The position numbers and the translations under genes are program-made. The notes below the pieces were generated by a model. It was not told the origin of the DNA. It saw only the letters and a list, made by a program, of their open reading frames with translations, and did not search any database. Shown here piece by piece: positions 50-13,507 of a DNA stretch of 13,507 nucleotides (positions are counted from its first letter, which is position 1; the number at the start of each line of letters is the position of its first letter). This stretch comes from a virus: UHGV virus genome UHGV-0166527; one strand, 5' to 3'.

Positions 50-2794
50 TCAAATCGCGTTCAGGTCTTTCTTATTCAACCATGCTTCCAGAGCGGCAAC
101 ACTGTGTGTAATTTCTTCGTGTGGGAGGGGGGCAGATAATGGTTGCTGCTCCAGTTGCGCGCATAGCTGGCTGGCGCTACGCATTCCCAGACTCGCGCAG
201 CTGCTTTTTAGCTGGTGCGCGGCACGTTTAATTTTTTCGCCGTCCTGCCTGGCGCGGGCTGCGTCTATTTCATCGAGAAGTGGCAGGGCATGTTGTTTAA
301 ATAATGTCAGCCATTCGCGAATACTCTCCGTCCCCATTAACTGAGCATCTTCATGGAGTTGCGATACATCCAGCGATTGATCTTTATTGGTTTGCAGTTG
401 GAGATAGTGCGCCAGTAACTGACCGAGCACTTCACGCGGCACTGGTTTAGGGATAATCCCGCGAAAGAGCGAACTGGTTCGCTGGCGCAGCGTTTCGTCG
501 ATGACATGGGCGCTAAAGCCAATCAAAACCAGCGACGGATATTGCTGTACCAGTTGTCGGGCAAGGGTAATGCCGTCGATATCCGGCAGATCAAAATCCA
601 CCAGTGCGGCAGCAAATGGTTCACTATTTTGCAGCGTTTCTATCGCCTGCGCGGCATTGCCAACAGCCACGACCTGCGCACCACTGGTGTTTAGCATCTC
701 AACGGTAATTCGCTGGGTTAGCGGGTTATCTTCAATTAACAGCAAACGTAAACCGTCCAGACGTACCGCCTGATTGACTGTTTTTGGCACGGGGGCAGTG
801 GCAACACGTAACGGCAAGCGTAAACAAAAACAGCTTCCAGCCCCCGGCGTGCTGGTGGCGCTCAGTTCGCCGCCCATCGCCTGAGCCAGACTGCTACTGA
901 TAGTCAGCCCCAGCCCGGTGCCGCCGCGTTTGCCGCTTACCTGAACAAATGGCTGGAATATTTCTGCCAGTTTCGCGGGATCAATACCGCAGCCGCTGTC
1001 TTCCACTTCGACCAACCATTGCTCGCCATCAGTGCGACTGCGCAGGACGATCTGCCCCTCGTCAGTGAAACGCACGGCGTTGCTCAACAAGTTGGTAATA
1101 ACCTGGCGAATACGTCGCGGATCGCCCATTAACGCGCTCGGTACATCGTTGGCAATTGCCGTTGCCAGGCGAATCGGGCGACCTTTCACCCGCCCGCTCA
1201 TTAATTGCAGGGTACTTTCCAGCAGCGGGCGTGGTTCAAAGGGTTCATCGCTGACCGAAACATTTTTGCCCCCCGCTTCGATAGCCGAATAATCGAGGAT
1301 ATCGTTAAGGATGGTCAGCAGCGATTCGCCGGAGTCGGTAATTGCCCGCAAATCATCACGCTGGGCGTTAAGTGCGGGGTTATCTGCCAGCAGTTGCGCG
1401 GTGCCGAGAATACCGTACAGCGGTGTGCGGATCTCATGGCTCATTGCCGCCAGAAACGCAGATTTTGCCTGGCTGGCTTTTTCGGCTTCCGCACGAGCCT
1501 GTCGATGTTCTACCACCAGTTCCTGTAATTCAGCCGTGCGCGCTTTTACTTGTGCCGCCAGCTGTTCGCGCTGGCGATTCAGCGCATGAACGCTGCTGCG
1601 AAACGCATCCATCAGCCGCCCGATAGTATCCAGCTCCCGCACGCCAGCGGTTTCCGGGAAAGGGGAGTCGATATCACCGTCCAGCAAGCGTTGCAGCGCC
1701 TGCGTTTGTTCAGCAAGTGGACGTGTGACAGAGCGATAAACCACGCGCCAGAGGATCAGAATCAGTGCGCAAAGTGAAACCATCCCCAGCAATACCAGGC
1801 TGTATTGCCCGCGTGCGCTGGCTTTTTCCAGATGCGCCAGTCCATGTTGATTACGCAGCTCAATGGTGTCGACCAGCTGACTGACTTCGCTACTAAACTG
1901 CGCAAACTGGGCGATGTTATTTTGGGCGAGAGTGTGCAGGTGATTGCTGATTTCACTGTCCTGCTGATACAGCGCCAGCAAATCGCTATATTGGCTAACG
2001 GTAGTTAACGTTGTTGCGACCTGAGCACGAACTCCCGGATCTTCAATGCGTATTTGCCGACGTTGCAGAATTTTCACCGCATTATTGAGCTGCTTTTCCA
2101 GCGTTGGCGCATTTTTCTGGATCTGTTCCAGCCCCAGATTCATCACCATTTGCTGCACCCGCAGAGCACTAAGGCGCAGTTCATTCATCTGGTTAACATA
2201 CTCAAGATCGATATCAATCAGCCTGTCGAGTGCGCTTTCGGCGGCCTGACGCTGATGTTGTTCGATCAAATCGTAAATCCCGGCCTGGGTAGCTCCGGCG
2301 GAGGTGGCCGCATTATTCGCCTGACCTTGCGCCAGGCGTGCGATTTCATCGGCGGCGGCGACTATCTGCTGACTGAGTTGCTGTTGTTGCTGGCGCAGTT
2401 GCAAACGCTGCCCCACCAGCTCCCCTTGCTGACGTAACGAACGGGAGATCTCCTGCTCCTGTTGTTCAATAGCGGTGGTATCAAAACCTTGTTCCCGTAA
2501 TGCTTGCAGCAACGCATTAATCTTCAGGCTTTGTGCGGTGAGCATTCGCCCCTGCGCCTGCCACATCTTTTCGTTATCGGCACTGGTCAGGTTCTGCGCG
2601 GCGAAAAGTTCCCAGGCGCTGGCTTCGCTCAACTGGCGCGCCATATTCATGGTAGGAATCAATGCCTGAGTGTTGTCTTTTTCCACCTGGCTGATAAAGC
2701 GCAGGTTGTACCATCCCACCAGGGTACTGGTCAGGGTTAACAGCGCCATCAGGGCAAAGCCCATCCAGAGCCTTCGGGTCAGGGTTAAATTCAC
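50..2794 (-). CDS. torS: Hybrid sensor histidine kinase TorS (trimethylamine N-oxide two-component sensor), complete 914 aa
   Basis: 914-aa ORF with N-terminal TM segment, HAMP-like region, histidine-kinase H-box (MSHEIRTPL), ATPase motifs (GTGLGL), receiver domain ([10 protein letters not shown]) and C-terminal HPt region; length and N-terminus [19 protein letters not shown] match my recollection of E. coli TorS. Confidence 0.93.
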
Positions 2795-2888: not shown

Positions 2889-3962
2889 TCATTTGTCGAT
2901 TTCAATTTTGTCCCATTCCCGTCCACGGCTGTCCCTATACCGCGCCGCCATTGAATCTGATTTATGCCCGAGAAGACGTTGAGCAAACTTATCGCCAATC
3001 TGGTTCCGGTATAGCCTCGCTGACAGGCTACGCAGTTCATGGAATGTTGGCGGGTTTCCATCAAATGAGAGTCCAGATGCATTTCTCGCCTTTGTAAAAT
3101 ACTTTGATACTGTTTTCGGGGAAAGCGGATCGTGATGCTTTGATGCGATTATAGTTTCACTGCTGCTGGCCTCCCTGCATTTTTGTAGTGTATCAGCCAA
3201 TGAGATATTGAGCGCGTCAATCGTTAGCGTCAGCGGAATGGCGAGCTTAGCCCCTGTTTTACTCTGCTCAATGTGAAGATGGTTGTCGTTTATGTCTGAC
3301 CATTTCATTCTGCACAAATCGCCCACTCTCTGCCCTGTAACGACAGCCAAATCCATTGCCAGCCTCAGCCAGATTGGGAGAGGTTCGGCTGCATGGTAAA
3401 TCGCGACATACTCATTAGCTGTCAGCCTTGAGCGCCTTACTTCTGACTTTGCTGTGCGGGTTGCTGTTACCGGATTCGTTTCCACATGCCCCTCGGCTAT
3501 TGCCTCACGAAAAACGTCAACAAGGGTTGACCTGATTAATTTTGCGGAAGCTGCTTTACCTTCTGCTACGTAGGTGTTTAGCATTGCTGCCACCTCTTTC
3601 GTTGATATGTCATTGAGCGGTTTGTCCGGCAATTTTCTTCGAATCGCCCTGATTTTGCTGGCGTAGTCGAGTAGAGTTTTCGGTCTGATACCCCTCTCGC
3701 TGAGGATTGTTTCATATCGGTCAAGCCACGCATGAAGAGTGATTGCGTCAGCGCCTTTAATCCTGTCTATCAGTGACTCACGCCTGTTCTCGGATAGCAA
3801 CTCAATATTGGCCTGAATAGCCTCTGAAACTGCTATCCTTCTGTCTCTGCCTAATCCGAACTCTTTACCCGTCCTTGGGTCCCTGTAGCAGTAATATCCA
3901 TTGTTTCTTATATAAAGGTTAGGGGGTAAATCCCGGCGCTCATGACTTCGCCTTCTTCCCAT
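2889..3962 (-). CDS. int: Tyrosine integrase, lambda Int family (357 aa)
   Basis: N-terminus MGRRRSHERRDLPPNLYIRNNGYYCYRDPRTGKEFGLGRDRRIA and C-terminus RGREWDKIEI closely match recalled lambda Int; catalytic motifs TGQRVGDL, HELRSL, LLGHKSD, ARYRD present. Confidence 0.95.
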   Translation of the reverse strand: MGRRRSHERRDLPPNLYIRNNGYYCYRDPRTGKEFGLGRDRRIAVSEAIQANIELLSENRRESLIDRIKGADAITLHAWLDRYETILSERGIRPKTLLDYASKIRAIRRKLPDKPLNDISTKEVAAMLNTYVAEGKAASAKLIRSTLVDVFREAIAEGHVETNPVTATRTAKSEVRRSRLTANEYVAIYHAAEPLPIWLRLAMDLAVVTGQRVGDLCRMKWSDINDNHLHIEQSKTGAKLAIPLTLTIDALNISLADTLQKCREASSSETIIASKHHDPLSPKTVSKYFTKARNASGLSFDGNPPTFHELRSLSARLYRNQIGDKFAQRLLGHKSDSMAARYRDSRGREWDKIEIDK

Positions 3963-4158
3963 TTCTGATCCTCTTCAAAAGGCTACCTGTTACTGGTCGA
4001 TTTAAGTCAACCTTTACCGCTGATTCGTGGAACAGATACTCTCTTCCATCCTTAACCGGAGGAGGGAATATCCTGCATTCGCGCACCCATCGACGAACTG
4101 TTTCAAGGCTTCTTGGGCGTCGCTGGCGAGCGTTCCACTCCTGAAGTGTCAAGTACAT
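3940..4158 (-). CDS. xis: Excisionase Xis (72 aa), 3' end overlapping int start
   Basis: MYLTLQEWNARQRRPRSLETVRRWVRECRIFPPPVKDGREYLFHESAVKVDLNRPVTG.LLKRIRNGKKAKS is essentially lambda Xis; ATG at 4156-4158 chosen over the longer in-frame ORF start at 4248. Confidence 0.9.
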   Translation of the reverse strand: MYLTLQEWNARQRRPRSLETVRRWVRECRIFPPPVKDGREYLFHESAVKVDLNRPVTGSLLKRIRNGKKAKS

Positions 4159-4768: not shown

Positions 4769-5047
4769 TCATTTTTCCTCTTTTGGTTTATGAATCTGAA
4801 TGGTCATGCCGCTTTGAGTGGTGGCTACAACGACAGAACCAGGCTGAAGGCTGTTAAGATTGAATGCTTCGTAAAACGAATCCAATGCCAGTGCTTTTTT
4901 ATTCTTTCGGTTCCACCAACGCCATCCCTTGCTACAGGCTACACTGACAATCCACTGTCCACTCCTGTAAGCCATATAAAACCAGATGAGCAAAACCTGA
5001 AGGAAGGCTATCCAGTCAATAATCGTATATTTCGCGAAGGAGTCCAT
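4769..5047 (-). CDS. Small predicted membrane protein (92 aa; hydrophobic N-terminal segments, tryptophan-rich juxtamembrane region, soluble C-terminus)
   Basis: ATG at 5045-5047 with AGGAGG 7 nt upstream and TGATG overlap with the upstream gene stop; hydrophobic stretches YTIIDWIAFLQVLLIWFYMAY and WIVSVA. Confidence 0.55.
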   Translation of the reverse strand: MDSFAKYTIIDWIAFLQVLLIWFYMAYRSGQWIVSVACSKGWRWWNRKNKKALALDSFYEAFNLNSLQPGSVVVATTQSGMTIQIHKPKEEK

Positions 5048-5259
5048 CACTTTACCTCCTGCGCCGCTTTGATGATTGCAGCCAGGCAATTCTTGCACGG
5101 AACCTGAAATGAACCCTGCTCAATGCTCAACAGTGCATGCTGAGCATCCTGAAAAAGCCAGTCTGAAAATTGTGGTACATGTCCGCACCACGTCTCTATT
5201 TCATGCTTTGCAAGCTTGGCGCCGTCACGATAGTCATATTTGATAATGTGCTTACTCAC
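5047..5259 (-). CDS. Hypothetical small protein (70 aa), GTG start
   Basis: GTG at 5257-5259 preceded by AGGAGGTGAAGCC; N-terminus SKHIIKYDY is paralogous to the next gene upstream. Confidence 0.5.
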   Translation of the reverse strand: MSKHIIKYDYRDGAKLAKHEIETWCGHVPQFSDWLFQDAQHALLSIEQGSFQVPCKNCLAAIIKAAQEVK

Positions 5260-5273
5260 GGCTTCACCTCCTG

Positions 5274-5531
5274 CTACTGTGATGCTGGCTGATTATCGTT
5301 AACGTATGCATCAGGAAGCAGATACTGCTTAGCCATCCAGTTATCACACTTCATTTCAGTAATGTATTTTGGCAGTTCACCGTGCTGACAATTGAATAGC
5401 CACCACTGGTCACCCATGCTTTGAGGAATAGCGCGCTCATACGTGATACCAAGCTCGCGAATTACTTCTTGCGGGTGCCTGCTTTCTCCTGAATAAGCAG
5501 CACCCATACAGTCATAGCGTAAGTGTTTCAC
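5274..5531 (-). CDS. Hypothetical small protein (86 aa), GTG start
   Basis: GTG at 5529-5531 preceded by AGGAGGTGAAGCC; N-terminus KHLRYDC; the ORF-track 116-aa version (start 5624) is an in-frame extension lacking an RBS. Confidence 0.5.
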   Translation of the reverse strand: MKHLRYDCMGAAYSGESRHPQEVIRELGITYERAIPQSMGDQWWLFNCQHGELPKYITEMKCDNWMAKQYLLPDAYVNDNQPASQ

Positions 5532-5535
5532 GGCT

Positions 5536-5652
5536 TCACCTCCTGCACAGGCTGAAAATAAACGATGTGATTGCCAAATCCTGAATTGCTGTAATTGCCA
5601 GCATCCAGCCATAAATGCTTTCACTGAAATGCCATGCTAGTGCTGTAATCAC
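5536..5652 (-). CDS. Possible small hydrophobic peptide (38 aa, VITALAWHFSESIYGWMLAITAIQDLAITSFIFSLCRR), GTG start overlapping the stop of the 405-aa gene
   Basis: Hand translation; GTG at 5650-5652 within GTGA overlap, preceded by AGGAGGTTAAGCC; not in the ORF track because it is under 60 aa. Confidence 0.35.
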   Translation of the reverse strand: MITALAWHFSESIYGWMLAITAIQDLAITSFIFSLCRR

Positions 5653-7627: not shown

Positions 7628-7989
7628 TTTTGCTCACCTCCCTGTTCTTCCAGAAAAATACGCATAGCCTCAAGCATCTCTTCGGTGTCATACGGTGATA
7701 ACTTGTCACGCAGGATGTGTTCAATGCTGTTAATGAACTTGCGGATTGCTTTGCGTTCAATTTCAGCCAGGACAGCGTCGGTGGTTGGAGTCCCTTCAAC
7801 CTTCAGCCCTATAGGGGCCAGGTAATCCTTCAGCCCCGCATTCTCCGCAGCCAGCGCCGCGCATTTAGCTTCAAGTTCAGCAAATTTACGCACCAGATAT
7901 TCAGTGTTTGTTTCGTTCACCTTTAAATCTCGTGGGATGCATTTACCTTTCAGAAATCCATCCATCTCAATTAGTGTCATTTGTTTCAT
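7618..7989 (-). CDS. Hypothetical phage protein (123 aa)
   Basis: ATG at 7987-7989; ATGA overlap with the upstream gene stop (translational coupling). Confidence 0.6.
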
Positions 7990-8168
7990 TTCTTCCCACT
8001 CCGCAACATCGCATTCAGATATTTGTTTTGATTCACTGATGGAAAAGAATTTCTCTTAAGCAATTCCTCTCTCGATGGCATTGGCTTTACGCGTTGGCGA
8101 ATAATCATTTCTGCCGGAAGAATGCCGGGATTGTATGCAAGTCCTCTCATGGTAAATTCCTCAGTCAT
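7986..8168 (-). CDS. Hypothetical small protein (about 60 aa; start uncertain, alternatives at 8183 or 8300 TTG)
   Basis: ORF in frame with ATG candidates at 8166-8168 and 8181-8183; no clear SD; bounded by coupled neighbours. Confidence 0.35.
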
Positions 8169-8454
8169 TACTGATAGCGCCATAGCGTGAGCGGTAATTA
8201 CGCAGGCGCGGGTCAATTTCAGGGAAGTGGGTATATGTGGCTTTGCGGAATGGTCGGATTGATGTCTGGTAAATTCGCTCGCGTTCTTCTTTCTCTGCAA
8301 GCCATATACAGTGGCGAAATTCCTTTTCCTTTTTCGTTTCCTGCGGTAGCGACATTATCCGGTTGTAGTTTTTTCTGAATTTATCCAGCACCTCCGATAC
8401 GGAATTGCCGGAACAGCGGCGCGGGTCATCCGCACCATACAGAGGCGCTGGCAT
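8161..8454 (-). CDS. Hypothetical phage protein (97 aa)
   Basis: ATG at 8452-8454 preceded by AAGGA 7 nt upstream; the ORF-track start at 8475 is a TTG. Confidence 0.5.
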
Positions 8455-8477
8455 AATGGAATCCTTATTTTGCAAAT

Positions 8478-8861
8478 CTAGAAGGGAATTGAATCGTCGT
8501 ATTCAGGATGATTTTGATGATTGCTACTTTGCTGCTGTTGGCTGTTTCCTGAAGTTGCAAATCCAATCTTTGCATTCAGTAATTCAAGATTGATTGATTG
8601 ACCATTTTGCCCCTGATAAACATCAACCCTGATGTTTTCTCCGGTAATTTCAACAATGCCACCTTCAACAAGAACACTACGGTAGTAATCCGCTTGCGCT
8701 CCCGGCTTGGCAAATACAACGGCGCTGTAGTTTGTCCATTCTTTCTTTTTTGTCTGGCGATCGTAATACTGAACGCCAGCACGGATGTTGAATCCGATAT
8801 TTTCCCCGGCCTGAAACTCTCTTGCGGGCTTGTTTAGTCTTACAGTAATCGAATGTGCCAT
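8478..8861 (-). CDS. ssb: Single-stranded DNA-binding protein, phage SSB-like (127 aa)
   Basis: OB-fold-like core and C-terminal acidic tail ending DDSIPF (compare E. coli SSB DDDIPF); ATG at 8859-8861 overlaps erf stop (TAATG). Confidence 0.75.
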   Translation of the reverse strand: MAHSITVRLNKPAREFQAGENIGFNIRAGVQYYDRQTKKKEWTNYSAVVFAKPGAQADYYRSVLVEGGIVEITGENIRVDVYQGQNGQSINLELLNAKIGFATSGNSQQQQSSNHQNHPEYDDSIPF

Positions 8862-9466
8862 TAAGCAGCCGCTCCTTCTAATTCGTCTCGTCTGATGTTG
8901 TAAACGTCCTGCGCTTTGTGCTGCTCCGGTGTGCCTTCGAGCATCTTCCACGCTTTGGCGAACGCCTGTTTAAGCTCTTCTACGGTGTTTTTCTGCATTG
9001 CTGCGTCAGTGAATGCTTTTAGAACCTGTTCAGGCGTAGGTGATGGTTTTGATTGCTTTGCTGCTGCGTTCTGCTGATGTTTATGCTCGTCTGTATCTGC
9101 ATCTTTCGCATCATCAATGCCGAACAAACCATTGAGGCAATACTTGCGTGCATAAGAGCTTGTGGCTCCCGTAACTTGTGCAGAATCCATTCCTTTCTTG
9201 CTTTCTTCCTCTCGTGCAAGAGCGGTTGCTGTATGACTGTTTTCGCCATCAGTAATAGTTGCCGTGGCTTTCACGTAATACCGATCACCAATCAACACAA
9301 CTTCATCGCTGATTGATAAAAACAGACCATTCAGTAACGGCTTAACGCCTTCAAGAATATCTTCGCAGCTTCTGTATTTATATTTACCGAATGAGTTGTA
9401 CTGATTTTTTGGCGCGTTCAGATTCTCCTGAATGGCTGCCAGTCTTGCGTAAAATTCTTTGCTCAT
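8861..9466 (-). CDS. erf: Single-strand annealing protein, ERF family (P22 Erf-like, 201 aa)
   Basis: MSKEFYARLAAIQENLNAPKNQYNSFGKYKYRSCEDILEGVKPLL... closely matches recalled P22 Erf; ATG at 9464-9466. Confidence 0.85.
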   Translation of the reverse strand: MSKEFYARLAAIQENLNAPKNQYNSFGKYKYRSCEDILEGVKPLLNGLFLSISDEVVLIGDRYYVKATATITDGENSHTATALAREEESKKGMDSAQVTGATSSYARKYCLNGLFGIDDAKDADTDEHKHQQNAAAKQSKPSPTPEQVLKAFTDAAMQKNTVEELKQAFAKAWKMLEGTPEQHKAQDVYNIRRDELEGAAA

Positions 9467-9555
9467 ATGTTTGTTCTCAGAATGGACATGGCCCAAGGAA
9501 ATAACGCTGATTTAATACTTCAGTCTTTGCCGCATTTAAAAATACGCGAACACCT

Positions 9556-9726
9556 TCACGATCTCCCTTCTGGCGATACATTAACGCCTGCTGCGTGTAC
9601 ATGCGTCTCTGTAACTTGCTCTCCTTCACTGTGGTTGCAAGTGACATGAATATCTCCTTCGTTACCGATTAAATCTTTCATCTGACGAATGAATTCTTCG
9701 TCTGACCAGTTATCTGTAAAACTCAT
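9556..9726 (-). CDS. Hypothetical small protein (56 aa) in the arf-like position between kil and erf
   Basis: ATG at 9724-9726 overlapping kil stop (ATGA); position analogous to P22 arf but sequence not recognised. Confidence 0.45.
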   Translation of the reverse strand: MSFTDNWSDEEFIRQMKDLIGNEGDIHVTCNHSEGEQVTETHVHAAGVNVSPEGRS

Positions 9727-9875
9727 TTCCTGCGATACCACGGAAGGTTGATAGCTGATTTCATCGCTTTATTTGCTTCAAGCCACATTTTTGAATCACC
9801 AATAAATCTGGCTATTACTGCTTTGTTCTGTGCAGCACGAAGCATCTGGTGATTAATGGCTATTTCATTGCGCAT
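9723..9875 (-). CDS. kil: Kil-like host division inhibitor (50 aa)
   Basis: Hand-translated MRNEIAINHQMLRAAQNKAVIARFIGDSKMWLEANKAMKSAINLPWYRRK; shares the FIGD.KM core with recalled lambda Kil; GGAGG SD upstream; absent from the ORF track (under 60 aa). Confidence 0.6.
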   Translation of the reverse strand: MRNEIAINHQMLRAAQNKAVIARFIGDSKMWLEANKAMKSAINLPWYRRK

Positions 9876-9994
9876 AACGCCTCCAGTTGTTTCTTTGCTG
9901 CTCTGATTAATTGTTTAACTCGGCGTGATAATTCAGATTCGTGCGGGTAGAAAGCGGACATGACGCCGCTACCCGCGAGCTGAAAGTGCATCAT
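9860..9994 (-). CDS. cIII: CIII-like protein (44 aa, FtsH-inhibitor family)
   Basis: MMHFQLAGSGVMSAFYPHESELSRRVKQLIRAAKKQL... resembles the lambda CIII amphipathic core (SESLLERITRKLRDGWKRL); AGGAG SD 6 nt upstream of ATG 9992-9994; overlaps kil start as in lambda. Confidence 0.55.
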   Translation of the reverse strand: MMHFQLAGSGVMSAFYPHESELSRRVKQLIRAAKKQLEALCAMK

Positions 9995-10056
9995 GGGTAA
10001 CTCCTTATATTTGATTGCATAACGAAAATGCCTCTCGTGAAGCATTATTGGTATGC

Positions 10057-10080
10057 GGTAAAGCCGCGCTTGGCGGCTTA
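10057..10080. repeat. Copy 1 of a 23-24 bp intergenic element GGTAAAGCCGCGCTTGGCGGCTTA (contains inverted repeat AAGCCGC/GCGGCTT) overlapping the stop of the 138-aa gene
   Basis: Near-identical to 10517..10540; palindromic core. Confidence 0.6.
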
Positions 10081-10494
10081 TTTGAAGATGTCTATGAAAT
10101 CAAGAACTGATGATATTTCGTGGTTGAACGATTTTCTTTTGTATCTTTCTATCGCAGAATCCACCTGGTGTTTATAGTCATCGTCGTTTGAGTATTTAAC
10201 GAAGCATTCTATTGTCTCAGGCGTTACAGCTATAAGGCTCCACCAACCTTCATCAGATTGATATTCAAATCCCATGCTTTCAAGCCATCCAGCATATTTC
10301 CCTCCAGCATCTTGCCAGTGTGTCTTTTCTGCAAGGAAGCTGTTAACCGTCATATGTGCATCAAGGCATTTATCCAACTGTTTACCATTAAGTAGCCATG
10401 CGCTGACAGTTGCACATCCCAAATCAACTGATTGAGTAGAGATATTGAATTGGTCGTAATTATCTGGATTAACCAGGATATCTGTAATTTCCAT
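10078..10494 (-). CDS. Hypothetical phage protein (138 aa)
   Basis: ATG at 10492-10494 preceded by GGAGGAATT; no recognised family. Confidence 0.6.
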   Translation of the reverse strand: MEITDILVNPDNYDQFNISTQSVDLGCATVSAWLLNGKQLDKCLDAHMTVNSFLAEKTHWQDAGGKYAGWLESMGFEYQSDEGWWSLIAVTPETIECFVKYSNDDDYKHQVDSAIERYKRKSFNHEISSVLDFIDIFK

Positions 10495-10516
10495 AATTCC
10501 TCCGTCATTGGCAGGT

Positions 10517-10540
10517 GTTAAAGCCGCGCTTGGCAGTTAC
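10517..10540. repeat. Copy 2 of the 23-24 bp intergenic element (GTTAAAGCCGCGCTTGGCAGTTAC) overlapping the stop of the 82-aa gene
   Basis: Near-identical to 10057..10080. Confidence 0.6.
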
Positions 10541-10785
10541 TCTATTTCTTCTTCGAATGATTTTATTAGTCGGTCAATAACATCATCTGTTTCAATATCA
10601 TTTCCGTCTGATTGCTTTAATACGTCTATTGATTCTACGGCGGTAAACTCCATCGCTGTGAGAAACTCGACAATTGCACACCCAACGACATATCGTTCTT
10701 CATCTGTACGACATGAGATAAAAGAGCATTTAATTGCTGTTATTACTTTTTGTTTAAGCTCTGCAGGGTAATCAGTTTTTATCAT
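10537..10785 (-). CDS. Hypothetical small acidic protein (82 aa)
   Basis: ATG at 10783-10785 preceded by GGAG 6 nt upstream; acidic C-terminus (DGNDIETDDVIDRLIKSFEEEIE). Confidence 0.6.
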   Translation of the reverse strand: MIKTDYPAELKQKVITAIKCSFISCRTDEERYVVGCAIVEFLTAMEFTAVESIDVLKQSDGNDIETDDVIDRLIKSFEEEIE

Positions 10786-10798
10786 CGTTTACTCCGTC

Positions 10799-10826
10799 AA
10801 AAAAACTGCCCTCACATTGGAGGGCA
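10799..10826 (-). terminator. Intrinsic terminator (minus strand): stem TGCCCTC / loop CAATGT / GAGGGCA followed by seven U
   Basis: 7-bp GC-rich stem; the minus-strand U-tract corresponds to + 10799-10805 (AAAAAAA); lies just upstream of the 82-aa gene RBS. Confidence 0.65.
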
Positions 10827-10942
10827 AAGAAGATTTCCAATAATCAGAACAAGTCGGCTCCTGTTTAGTTACGAGCGACATTGCTCCGTGTATTCACTCG
10901 TTGGAATGAATACACAGTGCAGTGTTTATTCTGTTGTTTATG

Positions 10943-10970
10943 CCAAAAATAAAGGCCGACTATGCGGCCT
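10943..10970 (-). terminator. Intrinsic terminator (minus strand): stem AGGCCG / loop CATAGT / CGGCCT followed by TTATTTTTGG; the loop contains the stop codon of the 207-aa gene
   Basis: 6-bp GC-rich stem plus U-rich tract read on the minus strand; tL1-like position after the N operon proximal genes. Confidence 0.6.
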
Positions 10971-11583
10971 CGGAAGGAAGTCCAATCATCTTATTCAAAT
11001 CTTCTACCCGTAAAGCAGGAAGTGCTGTACTTGCTTTGTCTGCTTCTTTTGGTAGCAATTCTTTGCTTTCAGGCCAAACTTCAATAAGTCGCTTAACTGT
11101 TGTGACTGAGTTCAAAGCAGCCCATACATTTGATTCGATATCCTTTTTCTTGGCTTCAAGTTTTTGTTGCAATGCGCAGATTTCATCAAACCTTTTTGTT
11201 ATTTCGTGTTCTGCGTCAAACATGCATTTATCTTTGGTCGGAGTAGGGAGCAATATATCTTCGCCGTTGCCGTCTTTCCCATATGAATGCCATCCAACCC
11301 TTCTGCCAGATACAGTCAGATAAATCGAAGTAGAACGAACATCGCATGAGTAAAATGAACATCCCATCTTTTCAATTTCTTCACTTATAGCTACTAACCT
11401 GGATGATAACTGATCCACTTCATCAGTTTTCTTTTTACCGCCAAACGCAACAACCCTGGCGTCAAGTGCAAGCTGGTTCTTTAACCTTGTTACTTCTTCA
11501 AGTTCAGTGAAAACCCCAGACTTAATTAAAGCGTTACGAGCGATTTTCTCTTTCATTCTCGTAGTTAAGCGGATTGATGACAT
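10960..11583 (-). CDS. Hypothetical protein (207 aa) immediately downstream of N, upstream of the first terminator
   Basis: ATG at 11581-11583 (MSSIRLTTRMKEKIARNAL...) preceded by GAGAGGAA; soluble, no recognised family; occupies the ral/sieB accessory slot. Confidence 0.65.
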   Translation of the reverse strand: MSSIRLTTRMKEKIARNALIKSGVFTELEEVTRLKNQLALDARVVAFGGKKKTDEVDQLSSRLVAISEEIEKMGCSFYSCDVRSTSIYLTVSGRRVGWHSYGKDGNGEDILLPTPTKDKCMFDAEHEITKRFDEICALQQKLEAKKKDIESNVWAALNSVTTVKRLIEVWPESKELLPKEADKASTALPALRVEDLNKMIGLPSEAA

Positions 11584-11594
11584 ATTAATTCCTC

Positions 11595-11921
11595 TCAAAT
11601 AAGTGGTTTGCTGCCTAATTTCATTTTCTGGCGACCAACACAAGTCACACCCATTTCACTGCGTGGCTTGCTGTACCATGTGCGCTGATTCTTGCGTTCA
11701 ATACGTTGCAGGTTGCTTTCAATCTGTTCGTGGTATTCAGCCAGCACCGTAAGGTCTATCGGATTCAGTGCGCTTTCTACTCGTGATTTCGGTTTGCGAT
11801 TCAGCGAGAGAATAGGGCGGTTAACTGGCTTTGCGCTTACCCCAACCAACAGGGGATTTGCTGCTTTCCATTGAGCCTGTTTCTCTGCGCGACGTTCGCG
11901 GCGGCGTGTTTGTGCATCCAT
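11595..11921 (-). CDS. N: Antitermination protein N (lambda-type, 108 aa)
   Basis: MDAQTRRRERRAEKQAQWKAANPLLVGVSAKPVNRPILSLNRKPKSRVESALNPIDLTVLAEYH... matches recalled lambda N including the arginine-rich motif; AGGAGA SD upstream of ATG 11919-11921. Confidence 0.9.
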   Translation of the reverse strand: MDAQTRRRERRAEKQAQWKAANPLLVGVSAKPVNRPILSLNRKPKSRVESALNPIDLTVLAEYHEQIESNLQRIERKNQRTWYSKPRSEMGVTCVGRQKMKLGSKPLI

Positions 11922-12078
11922 CTGGATTCTCCTGTCAGTTAGCTTTGGTTGTGTGTGGGAGTCGTAGTCCTGAACGAAAACACCCCGCAATGGCACATTG
12001 GCAGCTAATCCGGATTCGCACTTCCGGCCAATGCTTCGTTTCGTATCACACACACCAAAGCCTTCTGCTTTGAATGCT

Positions 12079-12109
12079 GCCCTTCTTCAGGGCTTAATTT
12101 TTAAGAGCC
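12079..12109 (-). promoter_or_regulatory. nutL site: boxA-like (GGCTCTTAA, + 12101-12109) and boxB hairpin (GCCCTGAAGAAGGGC, + 12079-12093)
   Basis: boxB is identical to recalled lambda nutL boxB when read on the minus strand; boxA differs from CGCTCTTAA by one base. Confidence 0.75.
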
Positions 12110-12154
12110 TCACCTTCAATGGTGGTCAGTGCGTCCTGCTGATGGCTTAAAATT

Positions 12155-12222
12155 ACAAGAAAGATTGTATGTTGTAAACAAGAAATATTGTAAAAATGGG
12201 CGTAAAAAACAAAATCCATTGT
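12155..12222 (-). promoter_or_regulatory. OL operators (three 14-bp 434-type sites ACAA-N6-TTGT at 12155-12168, 12178-12191, 12209-12222) overlapping the pL promoter
   Basis: ACAAGAAAGATTGT, ACAAGAAATATTGT, ACAAAATCCATTGT; minus strand shows -35-like TTTACA and -10-like TAATTT with 17-nt spacing. Confidence 0.7.
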
Positions 12223-12272
12223 TTTTAAACGGAAAATAGTTTGTTTTTTGGTTATCGAGATTGAGGTGGGGA

Positions 12273-13507
<1,235 letters not shown>

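What the first reader, a model, noticed from the sequence alone, without database searches (positions are those of the whole stretch)
8478..9875. Recombination module is P22-type (Erf plus SSB) with kil, unlike the lambda-type int/xis/N flanks
Where lambda has exo-bet-gam, this phage has an Erf-family annealase and an SSB-like protein with a DDSIPF tail, translationally coupled by TAATG. It is preceded by cIII-like and kil-like genes and an unrecognised 56-aa gene in the arf position. The kil ORF is under 60 aa and absent from the ORF track, so it was found only by reading the sequence. No gam or abc-type anti-RecBCD gene is recognisable; one of the unknown small proteins downstream may fill that role.
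Basis: partly seen in the sequence, partly recalled or inferred. Interest (0 to 1): 0.35.

Follow-up and report, generated by a model that had tools for sequence, protein, structure and literature searches.

The report
HK022/HK97-type phage recombination module

Summary
On the minus strand lie cIII (9860-9994), lambda-type kil (9723-9875), two overlapping 56-aa ORFs (9556-9726 and 9477-9647), erf (8861-9466) and an SSB-like gene (8478-8861). The SSB-like protein ends in DDSIPF, and its start overlaps the erf stop as TAATG.

Two statements are wrong or incomplete. First, an abc-type anti-RecBCD gene is present. abc2 lies at 8161-8454, 23 nt past the finding's edge (Pfam PF11043 E 1e-62, 92% identical to P22 Abc2, full-length match to PDB 8B1T). 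Second, the arf position holds two overlapping ORFs.

The module is not strictly P22-type, because P22 has Abc1 where this phage has the SSB. It is the HK022/HK97 module. All eight proteins are 98-100% identical to HK022's, and hundreds of viral contigs carry the same block. A 2025 survey of lambdoid Rec modules already names HK97 gp40 "SSB-1b".

My AlphaFold model and Foldseek search confirm an SSB-type OB fold. Canonical SSBs occupy the same slot in sister phages.

Verdict: already known, low interest.

The parts
9860..9994 (-). cIII (44 aa), inhibitor of the host FtsH protease that stabilises CII. It overlaps the kil start by 16 nt.
   Evidence: Pfam PF08134 E 2e-30. 100% identical to HK022 CIII and 42% to P22 C3.
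9723..9875 (-). kil (50 aa), lambda-type Kil cell-division (septation) inhibitor.
   Evidence: Pfam PF06301 E 1.7e-20. phrog_2055 E 1e-35. 100% identical to HK022 Kil. No significant similarity to P22 Kil (blastp E 0.54).
9556..9726 (-). gp42.1-like ORF (56 aa, acidic, pI 4.6). Its ATG overlaps the kil stop as ATGA. Likely positional analogue of P22 Arf.
   Evidence: phrog_2123 E 6e-40. 98% identical to HK022_42.1. Shares an SDEEFI motif with Arf, but only blastp E 0.07. Charge. The N-terminal 48 aa are nearly invariant in 63 sequence variants.
9477..9647 (-). gp42-like ORF (56 aa, basic, pI 10.1). This is the 'unrecognised 56-aa gene' of the finding. It overlaps gp42.1 by 92 nt in another frame.
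   Evidence: phrog_1723 E 4.5e-34. 100% identical to HK022_42. The frame is open in 62 of 63 variants, with conservative replacements.
8861..9466 (-). erf (201 aa), Erf-family single-strand annealing protein.
   Evidence: Pfam PF04404 E 2.1e-44. 75% identical to P22 Erf and 99.5% to HK022 Erf. DNA homology to P22 stops after about codon 159.
8478..8861 (-). Divergent SSB (127 aa, = HK97 gp40 / HK022_40, 'SSB-1b'). It has an OB core (1-105), a Q-rich linker and an acidic tip DDSIPF. Its start overlaps the erf stop (TAATG).
   Evidence: phrog_44 E 9e-28. No Pfam hit. AF2 pLDDT 83.7. Foldseek PDB top 50 are all SSB or PriB, E down to 3e-5. The homologue alignment shows a conserved core, a variable Q/P linker and a [DE][DE]xIPF tip in most rows. 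Canonical SSB sits in the same slot in sister phages.
8161..8454 (-). abc2 (97 aa), anti-RecBCD protein 2.
   Evidence: Pfam PF11043 E 1.2e-62 over 1-97 of 97 positions. 92% identical to P22 Abc2. PDB 8B1T_A E 3.7e-57, with Pro68 conserved (PMC9836394).
7986..8150 (-). DUF2737 small protein (54 aa), homologue of P22 orf56. It travels with abc2.
   Evidence: Pfam PF10930 E 3.4e-32. 77% identical to P22 orf56. Present after abc2 in 79 of 80 related loci.

Best explanation
The window is the left (pL) arm of an HK022/HK97-like lambdoid prophage. It is integrated through an HK022-type Int next to torS, and it carries lambda N and 434 immunity.

The finding covers most of the phage's standard recombination ('Rec') module. 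In transcription order the genes are cIII, kil, gp42.1, gp42, erf, SSB-1b, abc2 and DUF2737. They are tightly packed and partly overlap at start and stop codons.

The likely mechanism is as follows.
- After induction or infection, N-antiterminated pL transcription expresses the block.
- Abc2 binds the RecC subunit of host RecBCD and reprograms it rather than blocking it.
- Erf rings anneal complementary single strands.
- The phage SSB coats the ssDNA. Through a C-terminal tip that copies the host SSB tip (DDSIPF versus DDDIPF) it probably connects to Erf and/or host SSB-binding proteins.
- Kil transiently blocks cell division, and CIII protects CII from FtsH.

Shown here: gene identities, the fold of the SSB, gene order, and near-identity to HK022/HK97. 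Inferred from the named families: every biochemical activity, and the Erf-SSB cooperation.
For: Family assignments come from curated profiles. ERF E 2.1e-44, Lambda_Kil E 1.7e-20, cIII E 2e-30, Anti-RecBCD_p2 E 1.2e-62 and DUF2737 E 3.4e-32. PHROG SSB E 9e-28.

All eight proteins are 98-100% identical to those of HK022. The DNA is 95-98% identical to HK022, HK97, HK446, HK106, HK633, Sf101 and Stx phages. The HK022 record annotates the same genes in the same order.

Among 80 IMG/VR loci with an identical Erf, 76 keep gp42.1-gp42-erf-SSB-abc2-DUF2737.

For the SSB, AF2 gives an OB-type strand pattern with one helix (H55-63) at pLDDT above 90 over most of residues 1-105. Foldseek's top 50 PDB hits are SSB or PriB. 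The alignment shows core, low-complexity linker and acidic IPF tip. Of 107 unique enterobacterial Erf loci, the gene right after erf is SSB-1b in 93, a canonical E. coli-like SSB in 9, and Abc1 in 1.

Literature supports each step. HK97 gp40 is called SSB-1b in a survey of 325 lambdoid Rec modules (PMC12315714). Abc2 binds RecC, and Pro68 engages PpiB (PMC9836394). RecT annealases recognise the last 7 residues of SSB (bioRxiv 10.1101/2020.04.14.041095).

Flanks: HK022 int/xis/attP at 96%; lambda N (PF11438) and a 434-type repressor.
Against: - No experiment on HK97 gp40 or HK022_40 turned up in the two paper searches that touched on it. The 2025 survey (PMC12315714) bases its SSB-1b call on a predicted structure, so ssDNA binding is inferred.
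- Sequence-only links to canonical SSB are weak. There is no Pfam SSB hit at E <= 0.01. TIGR00621 gives E 0.013, below its cutoff. The best PDB sequence hit is E 0.076. Foldseek TM-scores are only 0.4-0.55.
- The HK022 GenBank record calls this gene 'likely analog of P22 Abc1'.
- Expression from pL, and the start-stop overlaps acting as translational coupling, are inferred from gene layout only.
Confidence: 0.9

Rival explanations
1. The 127-aa protein is not a working SSB. It is a functional analogue of P22 Abc1, an accessory anti-RecBCD or recombination cofactor that happens to have an OB fold.
For: It occupies exactly the Abc1 slot between erf and abc2, with the same one-base overlap onto the erf stop. 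The HK022 GenBank note says 'likely analog of P22 Abc1'. Canonical SSB sequence models do not reach significance.
Against: It shows no sequence similarity to Abc1. Abc1 is a basic HTH-like protein (phrog_323 'transcriptional regulator'; pI 10.3), whereas this protein has a full SSB layout of OB core, disordered Q-rich linker and acidic IPF tip. Genuine E. coli-like SSBs sit in the same slot behind the same Erf type in 9 of 107 unique loci.
Confidence: 0.08
2. The protein acts mainly as a decoy of the host SSB C-terminal tip. By presenting DDSIPF it would draw host SSB-binding proteins (for example exonuclease I, RecQ, RecO, PriA) away from host SSB or onto phage DNA. DNA coating would be secondary.
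For: The tip is nearly the host sequence (DDSIPF versus DDDIPF). It is kept in most aligned homologues while the linker varies freely in length and sequence. Annealases and many host proteins are known to read this tip (general knowledge of the SSB interactome).
Against: The OB core is the most conserved part (26 invariant columns, all in the core). That argues for selection on DNA binding or oligomerisation and not only on the tip. Nothing here tests binding partners. This reading is compatible with, rather than exclusive of, the best explanation.
Confidence: 0.1
3. The block is a decaying remnant in a defective prophage and no longer functions.
For: No complete E. coli genome covers more than 58% of the window, so this exact mosaic is not documented as an active phage.
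Against: All eight ORFs are intact and 98-100% identical to those of the viable phage HK022. int, xis, N and cI are also full length.
Confidence: 0.03

Closest known systems
Rec module of coliphages HK022 and HK97 (cIII-kil-gp42.1-gp42-erf-gp40-abc2-gp38; HK97 gp40 = 'SSB-1b' of PMC12315714)
   Same: Gene content, gene order, overlaps and sequence all match. The proteins are 98-100% identical to HK022's, and the DNA is about 95-98% identical across 8065-10056. int/xis/attP are also HK022-type.
   Different: Only the surroundings differ. Here N is lambda-type and immunity is 434-type, whereas HK022 has Nun and its own cI. HK022 carries an IS903 beyond cIII, where this window has other genes (138-aa, 82-aa and Nmad5 proteins).
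Salmonella phage P22 recombination module (c3-kil-arf-erf-abc1-abc2-orf56)
   Same: Erf is 75% identical (over 90% in the first 135 residues). Abc2 is 92% identical and orf56/DUF2737 is 77% identical. The order and the erf-stop/next-start overlap are the same.
   Different: P22 has Abc1 (basic, HTH-like) where this phage has an SSB. The last ~43 codons of erf are non-homologous and switch together with that gene. P22 Kil is an unrelated family. Arf (phrog_2445) is replaced by two overlapping ORFs (phrog_2123 and phrog_1723), with only a weak SDEEFI motif in common.
Lambda Red system (exo-bet-gam) with kil and cIII
   Same: Same place in the pL operon. kil and cIII belong to the same families as lambda's. 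The overall logic is the same: an annealase plus a RecBCD countermeasure.
   Different: There is no Exo, Bet or Gam homologue among the ORFs scanned. The annealase is Erf-family. RecBCD is modified by Abc2 rather than blocked by Gam. A phage SSB is added.
Bacterial SSB (E. coli SSB, PDB 1EYG/1QVC) and canonical phage SSB-1 (Sf6, ES18)
   Same: Predicted OB fold, disordered low-complexity linker and an acidic C-terminal tip ending in IPF. The position behind erf is interchangeable with canonical SSB.
   Different: Only about 15-18% identity in structural alignments. It lies below the thresholds of the Pfam and TIGRFAM SSB models. It is shorter (127 aa versus 178) with a much shorter linker. Oligomeric state and DNA binding are untested.

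Membership tests
ERF superfamily single-strand annealing proteins (PF04404) | Significant full-length match to the ERF domain profile | tested here: met
   PF04404 E 2.1e-44, profile positions 1-146 of 153. phrog_155 E 2e-57.
ERF superfamily single-strand annealing proteins (PF04404) | Close homology to the experimentally characterised prototype, P22 Erf | tested here: met
   75% identity over 205 columns, E 4e-106. The N-terminal domain is nearly identical and the C-terminal ~43 residues diverge.
ERF superfamily single-strand annealing proteins (PF04404) | Ring oligomer that anneals complementary ssDNA | not testable with these tools
   Biochemical property, inferred from P22 Erf.
Bacterial-type SSB (OB-fold SSB, PF00436 / TIGR00621) | Match to curated SSB sequence profiles above threshold | tested here: not met
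   No Pfam hit at E <= 0.01. TIGR00621 E 0.013, 15.8 bits against a cutoff of 53.95. PDB phmmer best hit is an SSB at E 0.076. The profile search against PDB returned only a polyQ artefact. Only the remote-homology PHROG 44 matches (E 9e-28).
Bacterial-type SSB (OB-fold SSB, PF00436 / TIGR00621) | SSB-type OB fold (beta barrel with a helix between strands 3 and 4) | tested here: met
   AF2 mean pLDDT 83.7, above 90 for most of 1-105, with a single helix at 55-63. Foldseek PDB: 52 hits at E <= 0.001. The top 50 are all SSB or PriB, probability 1.00, TM 0.4-0.55.
Bacterial-type SSB (OB-fold SSB, PF00436 / TIGR00621) | Disordered low-complexity linker followed by an acidic C-terminal tip ending in IPF (protein-interaction tip) | tested here: met
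   Window protein: residues 107-121 have pLDDT below 50 and are Q-rich, and the end is YDDSIPF. Most aligned homologues keep a [DE][DE]x[IP]PF-like end, while linker length varies greatly.
Bacterial-type SSB (OB-fold SSB, PF00436 / TIGR00621) | Cooperative ssDNA binding as a homo-oligomer | not testable with these tools
   No experiment on HK97 gp40 or HK022_40 turned up. The SSB-1b call in PMC12315714 rests on a predicted structure.
Abc2 anti-RecBCD protein 2 (PF11043) | Full-length match to the Abc2 profile and to the solved P22 Abc2 | tested here: met
   PF11043 E 1.2e-62, 1-97 of 97. 8B1T_A E 3.7e-57. 92% identity to P22 Abc2.
Abc2 anti-RecBCD protein 2 (PF11043) | Pro68, the residue that engages host PpiB | tested here: met
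   The alignment shows ...SIRPFRK... with P at position 68. Its role is described in PMC9836394.
Abc2 anti-RecBCD protein 2 (PF11043) | Binding to RecC and modification of RecBCD activity | not testable with these tools
   Inferred from P22 Abc2 (PMC9836394).
Lambda Kil (PF06301) | Match to the Kil profile above the curated cutoff | tested here: met
   72.6 bits against a cutoff of 27.6, E 1.7e-20, profile 1-31 of 31.
cIII (PF08134) | Match to the cIII profile above the curated cutoff | tested here: met
   104.7 bits against a cutoff of 25, E 2e-30.
P22-type Rec module in the strict sense (arf-erf-abc1-abc2) | Abc1 homologue between erf and abc2 | tested here: not met
   No similarity between the 127-aa protein and Abc1. 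They fall in different PHROGs, 44 and 323.
P22-type Rec module in the strict sense (arf-erf-abc1-abc2) | Arf homologue upstream of erf | tested here: inconclusive
   gp42.1 shares SDEEFI, acidity and position with Arf, but blastp gives only E 0.07 and the PHROGs differ.
Lambda Red (exo-bet-gam) | Homologues of Exo, Bet or Gam in the pL operon | tested here: not met
   None of the 20 pL-side ORFs scanned against Pfam or PHROGs hits these families. Two short ORFs (4769-5098 and 5274-5624) were not scanned.

The most novel reading that the evidence does not exclude
The mosaic exchange unit is not the gene. It is 'the last ~43 codons of erf plus the downstream gene'. The HK-type Erf tail travels with an SSB (either the divergent SSB-1b or a canonical SSB, both ending in ..D-x-IPF). 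The P22-type tail travels with Abc1.

This would mean the Erf C-terminal tail is a swappable adaptor that docks onto its cognate partner, probably the acidic SSB tip, giving Erf phages a private annealase-SSB pair. In addition, the two overlapping ORFs upstream (acidic gp42.1, basic gp42) would both be translated as Arf-like cofactors.

None of this has been tested experimentally for this module.
Probability: 0.3. Interest if true: 0.35.

Novelty: already known. Interest (0 to 1): 0.08.

Why it matters
It matters little beyond correct annotation. The block documents routine lambdoid mosaicism: an HK022/HK97 Rec module combined with lambda N, 434 immunity and HK022 integration at torS.

The practical corrections are threefold. 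The prophage does encode an anti-RecBCD function (Abc2), so no hidden substitute needs to be sought. The 'SSB' is the divergent SSB-1b type, still biochemically uncharacterised. The arf slot holds two overlapping ORFs.

The Erf/SSB-1b/Abc2 trio could interest recombineering work, because annealase-SSB pairing governs portability. That is an application of known principles, not a discovery.

Tried and rejected
1. Sequence-only proof that the 127-aa protein is an SSB failed. Pfam gave nothing. NCBIfam gave E 0.013, below cutoff. phmmer against PDB gave E 0.076. A 25-sequence profile against PDB returned only a polyQ artefact, MBP-huntingtin. The assignment therefore rests on PHROG 44, predicted structure, domain layout and gene position.
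2. The link between the small ORFs and P22 Arf is only a 17-residue blastp match at E 0.07, and the PHROG families differ. It is kept as a lead, not a finding. I ran no further search on it.
3. I looked for the exact prophage in complete E. coli genomes. The best place covers only 58% of the window at about 95-96%, so the precise mosaic and host were not identified and not pursued.
4. I considered the 'Abc1 analogue' reading from the HK022 record and rejected it as the main explanation (see rivals).
5. The promoter and terminator scan of 7800-12300 gave counts no higher than in shuffled sequence. It shows no internal regulatory signal within the module. Two terminator-like hairpins lie just downstream of the Nmad5 gene.
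Full report
**What is in the sequence**

All the genes in question lie on the minus strand and are read from high to low coordinates.
- cIII: 9860-9994.
- kil: 9723-9875. Its start lies 16 nt inside cIII.
- A 56-aa ORF at 9556-9726. Its ATG overlaps the kil stop as ATGA.
- A second 56-aa ORF at 9477-9647. It overlaps the first by 92 nt in another frame.
- erf: 8861-9466.
- A 127-aa ORF at 8478-8861. Its ATG overlaps the erf stop as TAATG.
- A 97-aa ORF at 8161-8454, after a 23-nt gap containing AAGGA.
- A 54-aa ORF at 7986-8150. The ATG of the next gene overlaps its stop as ATGA.

They exclude cIII and the 97-aa ORF.

**Checking the assignments**

Curated profiles give unambiguous answers.

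| ORF | Pfam family | E-value |
|---|---|---|
| erf | ERF PF04404 | 2.1e-44 |
| kil | Lambda_Kil PF06301 | 1.7e-20 |
| cIII | cIII PF08134 | 2e-30 |
| 97-aa ORF | Anti-RecBCD_p2 PF11043 (all 97 profile positions) | 1.2e-62 |
| 54-aa ORF | DUF2737 PF10930 | 3.4e-32 |

PHROGs agree, and they also place the 127-aa protein in phrog_44 'single strand DNA binding protein' (E 9e-28). These values are far beyond chance. The Erf, SSB-like, Kil and cIII calls are therefore confirmed.

The statement that no abc-type anti-RecBCD gene is recognisable is wrong. The 97-aa protein is 92% identical to P22 Abc2. It matches the solved Abc2 chain of PDB 8B1T over its full length (E 3.7e-57). It also keeps Pro68, the residue that engages host PpiB (PMC9836394).

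**What the module is**

The stretch 7600-10800 matches 263 phage records. HK446, HK022, HK97, HK106, HK633, HK544, Sf101 and many Stx-converting phages match at 95-98% identity. The curated HK022 record (AF069308) annotates the same genes in the same order, including both overlapping small ORFs (HK022_42 and 42.1) and 'Kil', 'CIII' and 'abc2'. All eight proteins of the window are 98-100% identical to their HK022 counterparts.

A scan of IMG/VR returned at least 592 contigs encoding a relative of this Erf. In the 80 best loci Erf is 100% identical, and 76 keep the full gp42.1-gp42-erf-SSB-abc2-DUF2737 order.

A 2025 survey of 325 lambdoid phages describes exactly this class. It names HK97 gp40 'SSB-1b' on the basis of its predicted fold, and it notes that the lambda, P22 and Rac modules encode no SSB (PMC12315714). 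The module is therefore already known.

**Is 'P22-type' the right label?**

Only in part. The P22 order is c3-kil-arf-erf-abc1-abc2-orf56. Erf, Abc2 and orf56/DUF2737 are homologous to the window's proteins (75%, 92% and 77%). The other positions differ.
- The gene between erf and abc2 is Abc1 in P22. Abc1 is a basic HTH-like protein with no similarity to the 127-aa protein.
- P22 Kil shows no significant similarity to the Kil here (blastp E 0.54). It falls in a different PHROG (phrog_2394 versus phrog_2055).
- Arf belongs to a different PHROG from either small ORF.

At the DNA level, homology to P22 covers window 9466 to 8990 (erf codons 1 to about 159) and 8457 to 8000 (abc2 plus DUF2737). 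The cassette in between is unrelated. That cassette holds the last ~43 codons of erf plus the SSB gene.

**Is the 127-aa protein an SSB?**

Sequence models of canonical SSB do not reach significance.
- Pfam gives no hit.
- TIGR00621 gives E 0.013, below its cutoff.
- The best PDB sequence hit is an SSB at E 0.076.
- A profile built from 25 homologues found only a polyQ artefact.

Three other lines do support an SSB.
1. The alignment of 25 homologues from enterobacteria and metagenomes shows a conserved ~100-residue core with 26 invariant positions. After it comes a Q/P-rich linker that varies greatly in length, then in most rows an acidic tip such as [DE][DE]xIPF. This is the three-part design of bacterial SSB. 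The window's tip, DDSIPF, differs by one residue from E. coli's DDDIPF (general knowledge).
2. AlphaFold2 on that alignment gives mean pLDDT 83.7, above 90 for most of residues 1-105. It predicts OB-type strands, one helix at 55-63 and a disordered tail. Foldseek against the PDB returns 52 hits at E <= 0.001. All of the top 50 are bacterial or mitochondrial SSBs or PriB, at probability 1.00, although TM-scores are modest at 0.4-0.55.
3. I examined 107 unique enterobacterial-type Erf loci drawn from IMG/VR and from one-genome-per-species GTDB contigs. The gene directly after erf is SSB-1b in 93, a canonical E. coli-like SSB (MASRGVNKVILV…DFDDDIPF) in 9, Abc1 in 1 and something else or nothing in 4. 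A bona fide SSB in the same slot behind the same Erf type is good evidence of functional equivalence.

ssDNA binding itself remains untested.

**How it most likely works**

Gene identities and order are shown; the rest is inferred from the named families.
- N-antiterminated pL transcription expresses the block. Lambda-type N lies at 11595-11921 (PF11438).
- Abc2 binds RecC and reprograms RecBCD rather than inhibiting its helicase. In the Murphy model it favours loading of the phage annealase (PMC9836394).
- Erf anneals complementary strands.
- The phage SSB coats ssDNA. Its host-like tip probably docks Erf and/or host SSB-binding proteins. RecT annealases have been shown to read the last seven residues of SSB.
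- Kil transiently blocks cell division, and CIII protects CII from FtsH (general knowledge).

**The arf position**

That ORF is basic (pI 10.1). A second ORF at 9556-9726 was missed. It is acidic (pI 4.6), starts on the kil stop, and shares an SDEEFI motif with the acidic P22 Arf (pI 4.05). The blastp match is only E 0.07.

I compared 63 distinct variants of this 291-nt stretch.
- The basic ORF is open in 62, with conservative replacements between two allelic forms.
- The first 48 residues of the acidic ORF are almost invariant.
- The overlap zone carries almost no nucleotide variation.

These patterns are compatible with both ORFs being coding, though they are not proof.

**Context**
- int (2889-3962), xis (3940-4158) and the attachment region are 96% identical to HK022's. 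The prophage abuts torS (50-2794).
- The repressor (12674-13306) and neighbouring DNA are about 98% identical to phage 434 and lambda imm434.
- The 'lambda-type flanks' are therefore lambda N, 434 immunity and HK022 integration, which is ordinary lambdoid mosaicism.
- No complete E. coli genome covers more than 58% of the window, so this particular combination was not found there. I did not pursue that.

**Verdict**

One claim is wrong: the anti-RecBCD function is not absent. One label is imprecise: the module is HK022/HK97-type, not P22-type. One ORF was missed. The module is common and already catalogued.

The remaining open points are the untested biochemistry of SSB-1b, the possible co-adaptation of the Erf tail with its downstream partner, and the dual-coding small ORFs. 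They are modest. Novelty: already known. Interest: about 0.08.

Noticed in passing
window 9477-9726 (-): Two 56-aa ORFs overlap by 92 nt in different frames between kil and erf (HK022_42.1 and HK022_42). Across 63 sequence variants both frames stay open (the basic one in 62 of 63), and the overlap zone is almost free of nucleotide variation. One IMG/VR variant carries +2 nt, which fuses the N-part of the acidic ORF to the C-part of the basic ORF.
   Followed up: partly
window 8457-8990 (-) compared with P22 26926-27382 (locus L003): The mosaic junction with P22 lies inside erf. The last ~43 codons of erf switch together with the downstream gene (SSB-1b here, Abc1 in P22). The HK-type Erf tail is found with SSB-1b or with a canonical SSB, and never with Abc1, in 107 unique loci. 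Only one unique P22-type locus was sampled.
   Followed up: partly
window 10960-11583 (-): A 207-aa protein just downstream of N is a full-length Nmad5 'nucleotide modification associated domain 5' protein (PF18757 E 9e-70; phrog_1965, unknown function). Two terminator-like hairpins lie at 10971-10952 and 10827-10806.
   Followed up: no
window 12273-12677 (-): A 134-aa ORF with a hydrophobic, signal-like N-terminus ([20 protein letters not shown]…) starts on the stop codon of the 434-type cI repressor as ATGA. It occupies the rex position, so it is probably co-expressed with cI in the lysogen. phrog_2651, unknown function; no Pfam hit.
   Followed up: no
window 10059-10074 and 10519-10534 (-): An exact 16-nt repeat, GCCAAGCGCGGCTTTA, sits immediately after the stop codons of two consecutive genes (the 138-aa and 82-aa ORFs). 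The chance expectation is 0.01 matches. It could be a small hairpin or a module-boundary sequence.
   Followed up: no
window 10078-10494 and 10537-10785 (-): Between cIII and the Nmad5 gene lie a 138-aa protein of unknown function (phrog_8967) and an 82-aa protein in phrog_14587, labelled 'anti-restriction protein'. Neither has a Pfam hit. This stretch is shared with HK446 but not with HK022, which has an IS903 there.
   Followed up: no
whole window; torS 50-2794 (-): No complete E. coli genome covers more than 58% of the window, and the best matches are about 95-96% identical. The exact prophage mosaic, and possibly the host lineage, is not represented among complete RefSeq E. coli genomes.
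   Followed up: no
loci L164-L243 (IMG/VR): When IMG/VR is queried with P22 Erf itself, only 3 of the 80 best contigs carry the P22-type Erf (100% identical to the query, followed by Abc1). Nearly all the rest carry the HK-type Erf followed by an SSB. The textbook P22 arrangement is therefore the rare one.
   Followed up: partly
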